Positions 42,001-45,000 of a stretch of 64,000 bases of DNA are shown in pieces. How positions within the stretch are numbered: the stretch's first letter is position 1; every line of letters begins with the position of its first letter. A program made the position numbers. The stretch is from the NCBI GenBank assembly GCA_037379345.1, contig CM074514.1, positions 744,001-808,000 of the forward strand, read 5' to 3'. The DNA comes from Perna viridis. Taxonomy: Eukaryota.

Positions 42001-45000
42001 AAACTTAGATGATCCACATCTCGTGGATAAGGAAGCTATTCTATGCTCACTAAATATAAAGGCAATGACATTTGATGACAGTATAGGACTATTACAGGCA
42101 TCTGCTCAAGGTGGTGGGGTTGGAGGTCAGTATATCATCAAGAAGTGTATGTACATGGTCAGGCACATGAAAGAGATAAGGAAGTTCATTATTGTTGAAT
42201 ACCTGAAAGGGGAGATTTTTTATTGCATAACATTGCATGTTTACATTTTCTCCTAGGGGGGCCTATGAATTTTGATGAAGGATATGTAGATGAGCATGAA
42301 TGACAATAAAAGGGATATCTGCAAGGGGAGGTAATCAAATTTAAGGGTTTTACATCTTTTAAGTCCAAATTAAGAAGCAGTTGGTATCATCTGTTTGGGG
42401 CTTCCAGTTGAGGGAAGTGATTTATTTGAGTTCATGGGTCAGGTTGGTAAGTATGGTGATACATAAGGAATTTATCACGCTATTTAAAAATATTTATTGA
42501 CATCTGACCAAGAATTTATTTGCTCTTTGATCTAGATAAATGGTTGTATTCATGTAGTCATTACACTCAAGGTGTACATAGAGGCTGACAAATGGTGATG
42601 AAATGGATCTATTACCATAAGTTGAAATAAAATCTAAATCCAAAGCTACTATATATTTATAAGCTACATCTATGTAAATCTGTATAACTTTTTCTTCTTT
42701 TGATAGGTTTTCTGCCTCCAGGATTTTCACCTATAGGAAGTCCAGCGAAACAATCCCGGCGTGGTTCCGTATGTGGTTCTAATGTTCCACTCATCACAGA
42801 GTTAGGTAAGCCAGGCGTGGTTCTGTATGTGGTTCTAATGTTCCATTCATCACAGAGTTAGGTAAGCCAGGCATGATTCTGTATGTGGTTCTAACATTCC
42901 ACTCATCACAGAGTTAGGTAAGCCAGGCACAGTTCCATATGTGGTTCTAATGTTCCACTCATCACAGAGTTAGGTAAGCCAGGCGTGGTTCTGTATGTGG
43001 TTCTAATGTTCCACTCATCACAGAGTTAGGTAAACCAGGCATGGTTCCGTATGTGGTTCTAACATTCCACTCATCACAGAGTTATGTAAGCCAGGCACGG
43101 TTCCATATGTGGTTCTAATGTTCCACTCATCACAGAATAAGGTAAGCCAGGCATGGTTCCGTATGTGGTTCTAATGTTCCACTCATCACAGAATTGGTAA
43201 ACCAGGCATGGTTCAGTATTTGGTTCCAATGTTCCACTGATCACAGAATTGGTAAACCAGGCGTGGTTCAGTATTTGGTTCCAATGTTCCACTGATCACA
43301 GACTTAGGTAAGCCAGTTAATCTTATTCTATTTTACAAATGATCTTCTTTACATTATCAAAATGTGGAGTAAAGATTTAAAATTTAGATATGTTTCCCAA
43401 AGTTAACTTTATTTAATTGTTCATTCTTCTATTATTTCAATAAAAACTGTAAAAGTTTTTTTTTTTCAGCTAATGACTCCAATGTACAGTTTTTGGATCA
43501 GGATGATGAAGATGATCCAGATACTCCACTATATATGACACAACCATTCGCCTGTGGTACAGCTTTTGCTGTCAGTGTGCTTGACTCTCTCATGAGTACA
43601 GTAAGTAACATACCTGTATGTGGTACACCATCTAATACCAGTAGGTTTGGCTCATTCATTAGTCCAATAAGTAACACCCAGGGGTTTCATTAATTTTTTG
43701 CAATGCAGGTACCTTTGGCTTTATACAAGGCACATTTTCATTATTTCCTTTTATAATCATGTATGAAACTTTAAATTCAGGAGGTACCTTTCAATAGCTT
43801 AGAAGGGTGAAAGTACCTGGTACTGCCTCTTAATGAAAGGTCTGTAACACCATCTGATACCAGTAAATTGGCTCTCTCATGTCATTGGTACAGTAAGTAA
43901 CACCCCTGTATGTAGTACACTATCTAATACCAGTAAGTTTAGCTCTCTCATTGGTATAGTTAGTAATATACCTGTATGTGGTTCACCATCTAATACCAGT
44001 AAATTGGCTTTCTCATCAGTACAGTAAGTAACATACCTGTATGTGGTACACCAATTTATACCAGTAAGCTTGGCTTGCTCATTCTTATTGTCGTTATACT
44101 GCAATCTTTATCAAGTTTTAAAAGTAAAATGTGTTTATTGCATTTCTTCCCACTAGTGGCCCATGATAGTGATTCTATGATAAACAGGTCGTCGATGCAA
44201 GGGTAGGAAAGTAGGCCAAGCTAAAGTATTATATACTGTCAGTGACCGTATATCATCAAAAAAATGTACTGTCAATGCATTTTGGTAGCTCAATTAAATT
44301 TTTTGCAGTATTAATGTACATGAATGGCACTAGATGGCTCAAAACCTCACATATAATTACAGCAGTTGAATATCCATTTTTTTGTTTTTGATCCTTCAGG
44401 ATTATTATACTTTATGTCAATGGTTTATGTCAGGAACTTGCCTATATTTTATTCAAATTTAAAAAAAACATTTAAATAAAATGAACAATTTACAAAAAAA
44501 TGATCTAAATCTAAACAATAACAATTTTAATAGACATACTTAATACAAATTCATATCGAACTGTTTAGAATCAAGAAAGAATAAAATGTCTTCAAATTCA
44601 GGTCTCAGTATATTGTAACTGAAATTTTTATACATGTATATATATCTGTATATGCATGGACCTAAACCAATTATTGTTATTGTGTTGGAACCAATTTGTA
44701 AAATTATGTAATATAGGAAATGCTAATGTATAATAAGAGTTTTTATTTTACATCATGTAGTCTTCGATCTTTGAATTTTTTTCATGCTATAATTTTCATA
44801 AGAATAAAAAGTCTCCAGTGCTTACAGCACTTTGATTTTTTTGTGTTGCAGTAGCCAGATAATTGTTTTCTACTGGACTAACGTCATCATGCCAATATTA
44901 ACAATGTTTGTTTGAAATTATTTCAAAATGTTTATGCCTTTAGATAAACCAAGTCTTGAAAATATGTATTTGTGGATAAGAGATAAAACATTAAAAAAAA

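What the first reader, a model, noticed from the sequence alone, without database searches (positions are those of the whole stretch)
42758..43315. Nine decoy donors behind the RRGS exon, all leading to a premature stop before the Ca2+ bowl
Seen: ten 55-56-bp copies fill most of a 664-nt intron. Every copy keeps GTAA(G/A)C; several are identical to the true TAG|GTAAGC and copy 7 has AAG|GTAAGC. Reading past the true donor hits an in-frame TAG at the end of copy 2, so any downstream donor truncates the channel or triggers NMD. Copies 8-10 are the most diverged, so the array is polar. Inference: either strict first-donor selection operates, or the array is a built-in unproductive-splicing dial whose strength depends on copy number. 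The unit also overlaps the RRGS PKA-type site, so gene conversion could alter it.
Basis: partly seen in the sequence, partly recalled or inferred. Interest (0 to 1): 0.72.

Follow-up and report, generated by a model that had tools for sequence, protein, structure and literature searches.

The report
Repeated splice donors in mussel slo
A 56-base stretch spanning the end of one exon of a mussel BK (slowpoke) potassium-channel gene has been copied ten times in a row, leaving nine spare splice donors in the intron; human genes such as F7 have the same layout, and there only the first donor is used.

Summary
At 42758-43315 there are ten head-to-tail copies of 55-56 nt (TRF score 859, 90% match). 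Copy 1 is the last 48 nt of a 99-nt slo/BK exon plus the first 8 nt of a 664-nt intron. All ten copies keep GTAA(G/A)C. Four decoys have the same 9-mer as the true TAG|GTAAGC, and copy 7 is stronger. Every decoy lies behind an in-frame TAG at 42859-61.

This is a known kind: a minisatellite whose first unit spans an exon-intron boundary. Human examples are F7 IVS7, IFI6, CBS, LMNB2 and PDGF (PMC1557585). In F7 only the most upstream donor is used.

Within the array the donor positions are no better conserved than the rest (4/9 vs 13/47 variable columns, p=0.43). Variation sits at CpGs (p=0.008), which fits neutral decay rather than a maintained "dial".

The array is not unique here. Minisatellites cover 24% of the gene. 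Two more exons (ending 38992 and 43600) have their donors reiterated, and 2 of 12 other-species ORFs show the same exon end duplicated.

No transcript data could be reached, so actual decoy usage is untested. Verdict: a real feature, a new member of a known kind, of modest interest.

The parts
42707..42805 (+). 99-nt slo/BK exon (phase 1 at both ends) encoding (G)FLPPGFSPIGSPAKQSRRGSVCGSNVPLITEL
   Evidence: tblastn of P0013 (NCBI M. edulis slowpoke-like X4). phmmer against PDB BK channels of Drosophila and Aplysia. AG at 42705-06 and GT at 42806.
42757..42768 (+). RRGS codons (CGG CGT GGT TCC). The repeat unit begins at 42758.
   Evidence: Sequence. Drosophila Slo aligns as QRRGSV. That this motif is a PKA site is recalled, not verified here.
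42758..43315 (+). 56-bp minisatellite of ten copies. Copy 1 is exon 42758-42805 plus intron 42806-42813.
42806..42811 (+). Authentic 5' splice site TAG|GTAAGC (copy 1)
   Evidence: It is the only donor that gives the conserved ...ITEL|ANDSNV... protein. PWM score 5.55 bits, U1 duplex -9.4 kcal/mol; 16 of 19 placed donors of this gene score lower.
42859..42861 (+). In-frame TAG reached by read-through; it ends copy 2's exon-like part.
42862..42979 (+). Pseudo-donors of copies 2, 3 and 4 (GT at 42862, 42918, 42974). Their 9-mers are identical to the true site.
43030..43091 (+). Weakened pseudo-donors of copy 5 (TAG|GTAAAC, GT 43030) and copy 6 (TAT|GTAAGC, GT 43086)
   Evidence: 1.0 and 1.21 bits
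43142..43147 (+). Pseudo-donor of copy 7, AAG|GTAAGC, stronger than the true site
   Evidence: 7.01 bits, above all 19 placed real donors
43197..43257 (+). Weak pseudo-donors of copies 8 and 9 (TTG|GTAAAC, GT 43197 and 43252). Both copies have a 1-nt deletion at -2.
43308..43313 (+). Pseudo-donor of copy 10, TAG|GTAAGC, 162 nt upstream of the acceptor
42806..43469 (+). 664-nt intron. The unique tail 43316-43469 ends in a T-run and CAG.
43470..43600 (+). Ca2+-bowl exon ((A)[18 protein letters not shown]...SLMST)
   Evidence: 41 of 43 residues identical to Aplysia BK 894-936, E 1.6e-21. 100% identical to P0013.

Best explanation
This is a locally born minisatellite whose first unit spans an exon-intron boundary of a mytilid mussel slo (BK channel) gene. 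A 56-nt segment, made of the last 48 nt of the exon and the first 8 nt of the intron, was duplicated in tandem. It later expanded, partly as a 168-nt three-unit block.

Shown: the authentic donor is followed by nine pseudo-donors, five of which are as strong as it or stronger.

Inferred by analogy with human F7 IVS7: the spliceosome commits to the most upstream donor, the one nearest the exon's 3' splice site, and the whole array is removed as intron. The pseudo-donors are competent but silent by-products. They are not maintained by selection. A slip to one of them gives an mRNA with the TAG at 42859-61, upstream of several further junctions, and that mRNA would be expected to be degraded or to encode a channel lacking the Ca2+ bowl. 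I read the array as a tolerated, probably copy-number-variable intron feature in a genome very rich in minisatellites, not as a regulatory device.
For: Anatomy and frames are given.

Only donor 1 restores the conserved protein.

Precedent comes from PMC1557585. In F7 the pseudo-sites are functional but unused, and sites with a consensus value up to 91 do not compete. In LMNB2 and PDGF only the authentic site is used.

There is no sign of constraint on the donors. 4 of 9 donor columns vary against 13 of 47 others (Fisher p=0.43). 69.6% of all columns are invariant, so an invariant GT is expected (P about 0.49). 5 of 6 CpG columns vary against 12 of 50 others (p=0.008). Four of nine decoys are weakened.

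Minisatellites are common here. There are 33 arrays covering 19.2% of the window, and 26 arrays cover 23.9% of the gene span.

The same architecture occurs at two more exons of this conserved, intact gene (donors at 38993 and 43601), and a 26-bp array abuts the donor at 13113. This argues that such arrays are tolerated.

Strong donor-like sites also fill other arrays on either strand.

The unit has no copy elsewhere in the window, so it is of local origin.
Against: No transcript or junction data could be reached, so first-donor use in this animal is inferred, not shown.

[quoted passage not shown] That rule would favour copy 10.

In IFI6 and CBS the first two pseudo-sites are used.

Unlike F7, where the unit holds 4 exonic nt, each unit here carries 48 nt of exon context.

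Donor-spanning arrays are more frequent than a uniform seeding model predicts: 3 observed against 0.525 expected, P=0.016. This is a post hoc test.

The same exon end is duplicated in 2 of 12 other-species ORFs. That could hint at something beyond neutrality.
Confidence: 0.65

Rival explanations
1. Unproductive-splicing dial. A regulated or copy-number-dependent fraction of transcripts uses the decoy donors, acquires the TAG at 42859-61 and is lost to NMD, and this tunes BK channel output.
For: All nine decoys lead to a stop. Five of nine are at least as strong as the true site. The first pseudo-sites are used in IFI6 and CBS. Proximal-site preference is seen in two-site constructs. In the window and in both other-species cases the unit length is 2 mod 3, so a stop follows at once.
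Against: The donors show no conservation beyond the rest of the unit, variation follows CpG decay, and 4 of 9 decoys are weakened. In F7 identical pseudo-sites are not used at all. Similar arrays sit at other exons and deep in introns of the same gene with no common design. The frame observation is biased: only copies lying in an open frame can be seen in ORF-derived proteins.
Confidence: 0.15
2. The array acts as a U1-recruiting element. Multiple U1 snRNP sites just downstream would strengthen definition of the short 99-nt exon or protect the AT-rich pre-mRNA from premature cleavage, while splicing still uses donor 1.
For: There are six high-scoring U1 sites within 510 nt. Sense-strand donor-like sites are denser inside arrays than outside, 3.04 against 1.28 per kb at the median-donor threshold. 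That intronic U1 binding can have these effects is recalled, not read here.
Against: There is no strand bias at array level. Two arrays carry strong sites in sense and two in antisense. The antisense density is also raised inside arrays (1.91 against 0.95 per kb), so the excess reflects repetition. No constraint on the donor positions was found.
Confidence: 0.07
3. Raw material for an alternative exon. A cryptic acceptor inside a unit (the CAG six nt before each TTAG|GT) combined with that unit's donor would add an in-frame 6-nt micro-exon. Longer term, such duplications could evolve into a cassette exon at this junction.
For: Each unit carries CTAAT, a pyrimidine-rich run and CAG just before the donor (sequence). 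In the FGG duplication a transcript of exactly this type was seen: normal donor to a cryptic acceptor in the duplicate, then the duplicated donor. The same junction is alternative splice site C4/SS4 in rat Kcnma1. Its 27-aa insert, printed in Table 1 of PMC3393747, ends ...MITEL, and the probes read TEL|VN and TEL|AK, so the insert repeats the end of the exon before it.
Against: A 6-nt exon is far below usual exon sizes. No transcript evidence exists. All longer AG-to-GT combinations in the array keep the read-through frame and hit the TAG (my frame reasoning; no separate enumeration was run). The vertebrate link rests on five residues.
Confidence: 0.05
4. Assembly or haplotype peculiarity. 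The copy number is mis-assembled, or the array marks a poorly expressed allele in a highly polymorphic genome.
For: Minisatellites are hard to assemble and are often polymorphic. F7 has alleles with 5-9 copies. No second copy of this locus could be examined.
Against: The copies differ at 17 of 56 columns in a structured pattern, with a 168-nt higher-order repeat and a distal subfamily. That is not what a collapsed or inflated assembly gives. All exons in the window are intact and close to P0013.
Confidence: 0.05

Closest known systems
Human F7 intron 7 (IVS7) 37-bp VNTR (Borensztajn et al. 2006, PMC1557585; abstract, Introduction and Discussion read)
   Same: It is a minisatellite whose first monomer spans the exon-intron boundary. 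The authentic donor is followed by 4-8 pseudo-donors of identical sequence, all facing one acceptor. Most pseudo-sites lead to premature stops.
   Different: The F7 unit holds 4 exonic and 33 intronic nt, against 48 and 8 here. The F7 copies are identical at the donor, whereas here 4 of 9 are weakened and one is strengthened. F7 usage was tested with 50 constructs; here nothing has been tested. The species and gene differ: a mollusc BK channel.
Other human boundary-spanning minisatellites listed in PMC1557585: IFI6 (6-16), CBS IVS13, LMNB2, PDGF intron 4
   Same: The donor is reiterated in every unit of an intronic array. The 81-100-bp units of PDGF and LMNB2 are nearer in size to the 56-71-bp units here.
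   Different: In IFI6 and CBS the first two pseudo-sites are used constitutively. The outcomes for the mussel arrays are unknown.
Zhuo et al. 2007 PNAS, introns arising from tandem arrays (seen only in reference lists; content recalled; paper not held)
   Same: Tandem arrays that supply repeated splice sites.
   Different: As I recall it, that work concerns arrays that create new, alternatively spliced introns. Here a pre-existing conserved intron has been filled by the array.
[quoted passage not shown]
   Same: A tandem duplication that copies an exon end together with its donor.
   Different: It is a single 403-bp duplication. It causes mostly intron retention and disease. This shows such events are not always tolerated.
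Regulated unproductive splicing / poison splice sites coupled to NMD (recalled concept)
   Same: Use of an alternative site would introduce a premature stop.
   Different: Such elements are typically conserved and shown to be used. Here no conservation signal was found and usage could not be tested.

Membership tests
Boundary-spanning minisatellite with reiterated 5' splice site (F7 IVS7 type) | Head-to-tail array with a unit of tens of bp | tested here: met
   TRF gives period 56, 10.0 copies, 90% match, score 859. Copies are aligned.
Boundary-spanning minisatellite with reiterated 5' splice site (F7 IVS7 type) | The first monomer contains the exon-intron junction | tested here: met
   Copy 1 is 42758-42813. 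The junction at 42805|42806 is fixed by homology to P0013 and to Aplysia and Drosophila BK.
Boundary-spanning minisatellite with reiterated 5' splice site (F7 IVS7 type) | The authentic donor sequence recurs in the following monomers | tested here: met
   10 of 10 copies keep GTAA(G/A)C. 4 of 9 decoys have an identical 9-mer and 1 of 9 is stronger.
Boundary-spanning minisatellite with reiterated 5' splice site (F7 IVS7 type) | Only (or mainly) the most upstream donor is used | not testable with these tools
   No RNA data or eukaryotic read or contig collection was available. The only indirect evidence is that the annotated M. edulis protein P0013 and the solved BK structures correspond to donor 1.
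Boundary-spanning minisatellite with reiterated 5' splice site (F7 IVS7 type) | Copy number varies between alleles (VNTR) | not testable with these tools
   Only one copy of the locus is held.
Regulated unproductive splicing (poison site plus NMD) | The alternative site introduces a premature stop upstream of further junctions | tested here: met
   The TAG at 42859-61 precedes all nine decoys. Exons follow at 43470, 45023, 45974 and 48567.
Regulated unproductive splicing (poison site plus NMD) | The poison element is under purifying selection | tested here: not met
   Donor columns are no less variable than the rest (4/9 vs 13/47, p=0.43). Variation sits at CpGs. The cross-species evidence is inconclusive.
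Regulated unproductive splicing (poison site plus NMD) | The site is actually used, and use changes with conditions | not testable with these tools
   No transcript data.
Recursive splice site (3' site juxtaposed to a regenerated 5' site) | Pyrimidine tract plus AG directly followed by GTAAG, with no competing AG just upstream, in a very long intron | tested here: not met
   TTAG|GTAAGC is present in each unit, but CAG and GAG lie 6 and 4 nt upstream of that AG, and the intron is only 664 nt.

The most novel reading that the evidence does not exclude
Duplication of the exon end plus donor at the RRGS/Ca2+-bowl junction of slo is recurrent. It is seen in the window and in two other lineages, and there are further duplications of the Ca2+-bowl exon end elsewhere. 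It would be preferentially retained when the unit is out of frame, so that every slip to a pseudo-donor is a clean NMD substrate. Copy number would then set a small, heritable loss of productive BK mRNA. The same process would be the origin of the vertebrate C4 27-aa alternative exon, which ends in the same ITEL motif. Mussel genomes, with three such arrays in one gene, would then be a natural test bed for how 5' splice sites are chosen outside mammals.
Probability: 0.1. Interest if true: 0.6.

Novelty: new member of a known kind. Interest (0 to 1): 0.3.

Why it matters
The layout is a natural experiment in 5' splice-site choice: one acceptor faces ten near-identical donors, and only the first is compatible with a working channel. 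In mammals this layout (F7) gave the evidence for upstream-first selection. A mollusc gene with three such arrays would show whether the rule holds outside vertebrates, and whether it holds when each pseudo-site also carries 48 nt of exon context. For the channel itself the stake is small unless decoys are used. If they are, copy number would affect how much Ca2+-bowl-containing BK protein is made.

Tried and rejected
1. RNA structure masking the decoys. The fold of 42707-43480 gives -199 kcal/mol, z = -2.7 on only 20 shuffles. Nothing sets donor 1 apart.

2. U1-site selection on the sense strand. There is no strand bias among arrays.

3. Recursive splicing at TTAG|GTAAGC. Rejected because of the upstream AGs and the short intron.

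4. A dispersed repeat or transposon as the origin. The unit has no copy outside 42752-43316 in the window.

5. Search for transcript-derived ORFs spanning the junction or the read-through. The word-index search found 2 proteins among 3 candidates. The HMMER search of 1.84 billion representatives found 14. All relevant ones are genomic ORFs, and none is spliced. P0124 and P0130 are unrelated repeat proteins and were dropped.

6. BLASTP of P0121 against the +1-frame peptide of the window exon gave no alignment. The overlap-compatibility test replaced it.

7. Pfam on the two exons and on four ORFs downstream of the gene gave 0 families for all 6.

8. The listing of cluster members for P0013 and P0121 did not complete because the database is off.

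9. Zhuo et al. 2007 is not held.

10. A search for 'S942' with slowpoke found no paper holding both terms among the 10 of 102 listed. The PKA-site status of RRGS therefore rests on recall.

Each exon was searched on its own.
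Full report
**What the locus is.** The window carries, on the + strand, most of a slowpoke/BK channel gene of a mytilid mussel. tblastn of P0013 places 23 exon matches between 407 and 48650. P0013 is the NCBI Mytilus edulis calcium-activated potassium channel slowpoke-like isoform X4, 1166 aa, found. The exon at 43470-43600 encodes the Ca2+ bowl; 41 of 43 residues are identical to Aplysia BK residues 894-936, E 1.6e-21. 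The exon before it, 42707-42805 (99 nt, phase 1 at both ends), encodes (G)FLPPGFSPIGSPAKQSRRGSVCGSNVPLITEL. It aligns with Aplysia BK 866-892 and with Drosophila Slo ...QRRGSVYGANVPMITEL. Both homologues, and P0013, run from ...ITEL straight into (A/V)NDSNVQFLD. The productive donor is therefore the GT at 42806 and the acceptor ends at 43469. The window has no N, is 33% G+C, and is not human. I built no joined exon model; every search used one exon, or one exon with its read-through.

**Check of the observation.** TRF reports one array at 42758-43316: period 56, 10.0 copies, 90% matches, no indels, score 859. The copies are eight of 56 nt and two of 55 nt, at the coordinates given under the observation check. 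Copy 1 is the last 48 nt of the exon plus GTAAGCCA. After copy 10 the intron goes on with unique sequence (GTTAATC...).
- All ten copies keep GTAA(G/A)C.
- Copies 2, 3, 4 and 10 have the same 9-mer as the true site (TAG|GTAAGC).
- Copy 7 has AAG|GTAAGC, copy 5 has +5A, copy 6 has -1T, and copies 8 and 9 have TTG|GTAAAC after a 1-nt deletion.
- Read-through from 42805 gives ...ITELGKPGVVLYVVLMFHSSQS and then TAG at 42859-61. Every decoy therefore lies behind a stop.
- Using decoys 2 to 10 would lengthen the exon to 155-601 nt.

By differences from copy 1, only copy 9 (8 differences) stands out; the others have 2-5. Copies 8-10 do share private variants. Copies 1-7 show a three-unit periodicity, with lag-3 identity 94.6% against about 90% at other lags, so part of the array grew by duplicating a 168-nt block.

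**Strength of the sites.** I scored sites with a position-weight matrix built from recalled, approximate metazoan frequencies and with ViennaRNA duplex energies against the U1 5' end. The true site scores 5.55 bits and -9.4 kcal/mol. It ranks above 16 of the 19 donors of this gene that I could place; 4 of the 23 exon matches had ambiguous ends and were left out. Copies 2, 3, 4 and 10 score the same as the true site. Copy 7 scores 7.01. Copies 5, 6, 8 and 9 score 1.0, 1.21, -1.0 and -1.0. Five of the nine decoys are thus at least as good as the real donor.

**Are the decoys maintained?** With copies anchored on GT, 17 of 56 columns vary. 4 of the 9 donor columns (-3 to +6) vary against 13 of 47 others (Fisher p=0.43). 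With 69.6% of columns invariant, two given columns are both invariant about half the time, so the invariant GT carries no information. 5 of 6 columns that are CpG in some copy vary, against 12 of 50 others (p=0.008). This is the signature of unconstrained, probably methylated DNA. The exon copy keeps both CpGs, and the array consensus has lost one. The donor region as a whole, however, behaves like the rest of the unit.

**Context in the window.** Minisatellites with period of at least 10 form 33 merged arrays covering 19.2% of the window. 26 of them cover 23.9% of the gene span. I ran blastn of each of the 23 exon matches, with 30 nt of flank, against the window. Four exons have their 3' end or donor repeated downstream, and none has a convincing repeat on the acceptor side; there is one 26-nt, 88% match near 36634.
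- The target exon is one of the four.
- The exon ending 38992 is followed by 70/71-bp units that each contain ...GTCATG|GTATGT, with decoy GTs at 39063, 39134, 39317, 39387, 39458 and 39529, plus an inverted copy.
- The Ca2+-bowl exon donor ACA|GTAAGTAAC recurs at 43893 and 44024, and as a variant at 43959, in 66-bp units.
- A 4.5-kb 26-bp array starts two bases into the intron after the exon ending 13112.

If array seeds fell uniformly in the gene span, 0.525 donor-spanning arrays would be expected. Three are observed, P(>=3)=0.016. That test is post hoc and rests on small numbers. Strong donor-like sites also occur in arrays unrelated to exons: ten CAG|GTAGGG sites in sense at 40009-40716, and arrays at 1766-2526 and 25208-25731 that carry them in antisense. 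I see no strand bias that would point to selection for U1 binding.

**Other species.** No eukaryotic DNA collection was available, so I used ORF-derived proteins. The 57-aa read-through ORF (42688-42858) found 2 proteins by word search and 14 by HMMER over 1.84 billion representatives. Two of the 14 (P0124, P0130) are unrelated repeat proteins and were dropped. The other 12 are genomic ORFs that hold the homologous exon and read on into the intron.

For each of the 12 I asked whether the tail could be read from the DNA encoding that species' own exon in the +1 or +2 frame. P0121 gives a run of 22 residues up to its stop. P0126 gives a run of 12, which is its whole tail after GK. The maximum over 100 shuffles per protein is 5-8, except 2 for P0134, whose tail is a single residue. 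The other 10 give runs of 2-5 (first test, where the maximum over 2000 shuffles was 4). So 2 of 12 other lineages also carry a second, frame-shifted copy of this exon end right behind the donor.

The P0121 unit is longer, about 89 nt by my reckoning, with different boundaries, so it arose independently. The P0126 unit is about 53 nt and starts at the same codon position as the window's. Whether that is shared ancestry with concerted evolution or coincidence cannot be told without DNA. The tails are short (1-83 aa), and copies in closed frames would be invisible, so 2 of 12 is a lower bound with a frame bias.

For the Ca2+-bowl exon, P0016 and P0002-P0004 (unnamed records) show extra copies of the exon end in the following intron. 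The NCBI Habropoda laboriosa model P0001 contains the RRGS and Ca2+-bowl segment twice. These topped a list ranked by score out of 8000 candidates, so they say the event occurs, not how often.

**What is known.** Borensztajn et al. 2006 (PMC1557585; abstract, Introduction and Discussion read) describe exactly this layout. The human F7 gene has a 37-bp VNTR in intron 7 whose first element spans the boundary, so the authentic donor is followed by 4-8 identical pseudo-sites. These are functional when upstream ones are destroyed, but normally only the most upstream site is used. Pseudo-sites with a consensus value up to 91 do not compete. The authors list further genes with such minisatellites:
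- IFI6: 25 pseudo-sites, the first two used.
- CBS intron 13: two used.
- LMNB2: 100-bp units, only the authentic site used.
- PDGF intron 4: 81-bp units.

A later review repeats the F7 point (PMC6627357, one passage).

Some results point the other way. [quoted passage not shown] Intronic minisatellites have been linked statistically to genes with several splicing decisions in C. elegans, in a paper motivated by slo-1 (PMC4039745, abstract and passages). Zhuo et al. 2007 (tandem arrays as a source of introns) is not held; I saw it only in reference lists.

**The junction itself.** In rat Kcnma1 the same junction is alternative splice site C4/SS4. The 27-aa Slo27 insert printed in Table 1 of PMC3393747 ends ...MITEL. 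The TaqMan probes read TEL|VN (no insert) and TEL|AK (insert) across the junction. PMC4055454 places the insert just upstream of the Ca2+ bowl. The insert thus repeats the end of the exon before it. I take this as a lead that an old duplication of this exon end became a cassette exon in vertebrates. It rests on five residues and was not tested.

**Mechanism and verdict.** Shown:
- a boundary-spanning minisatellite with nine pseudo-donors, all behind a stop;
- local origin of the unit;
- no excess conservation of the donor positions;
- two more arrays of the same type in the same intact gene;
- recurrence of the duplication in other lineages.

Inferred:
- the most upstream donor is selected and the array leaves with the intron, as in F7;
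- slips to a decoy would be lost by NMD.

Not testable here: actual junction usage, copy-number variation, and orthologous DNA.

The remainder is split over a U1-recruiting role, an in-frame micro-exon or nascent alternative exon, and an assembly or allele peculiarity. The finding is a new member of a known kind. Its main value is as a non-mammalian test case for 5' splice-site choice.

Noticed in passing
window 38935-39566 (exon ends 38992): A second boundary-spanning minisatellite of 70/71-bp units. Each unit repeats the exon end ...GMFHWCPSRPLDTAVM and its donor ATG|GTATGT. There is also an inverted copy at 39179-39259. The decoy at 39134 is GTCATG|GTAAGT, a better match to the consensus than the true GTATGT. 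It lies +141 nt downstream, in frame, with no stop, so it could give a 47-aa in-frame insertion. Later decoys lie behind the TAG at 39182.
   Followed up: partly
window 43581-44083 (exon ends 43600): The Ca2+-bowl exon's donor ACA|GTAAGTAAC and about 20 nt of exon recur in 66-bp units. The donor context (6 nt before and 8 nt after the GT) is identical at 44024 and differs at one position at 43893 (GGTACA instead of AGTACA); there is a variant at 43959. All lie behind an in-frame TAA at 43691. The junction copy is separated from the TRF array by about 250 nt.
   Followed up: partly
window 13113-17623: A 4.5-kb array of 26-bp units (with 35-bp variants) begins two bases after the donor AAA|GTAAGT of the exon ending 13112. 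The units carry weak GTGA-type donor-like motifs.
   Followed up: no
window 40009-40716: A 35-bp x 21 array just upstream of the exon at 40794 carries ten strong sense-strand donor-like sites (CAG|GTAGGG). They are not derived from any exon.
   Followed up: partly
whole window: Very high minisatellite load: 33 merged arrays with period of at least 10 cover 19.2% of the window and 23.9% of the slo gene span.
   Followed up: yes
proteins P0001, P0002-P0004, P0016 (other species): The Ca2+-bowl exon end is duplicated in the following intron in unnamed records from other animals. The NCBI Habropoda laboriosa slowpoke model contains the RRGS and Ca2+-bowl segment twice in frame, which is either a real tandem duplication or an assembly or annotation artefact.
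   Followed up: partly
window 42814-43315, each unit: Every unit holds CTAAT, a pyrimidine-rich run and CAG six nt before its TTAG|GT. A cryptic acceptor plus the unit's donor would define a 6-nt in-frame micro-exon (AGTTAG).
   Followed up: no
window 59343-60667 (+): Three consecutive stop-free frames of 110-166 aa lie downstream of the gene. By eye they resemble a decayed retroelement (reverse-transcriptase-like and Cys-rich segments; this resemblance is recalled). Pfam found no family.
   Followed up: partly
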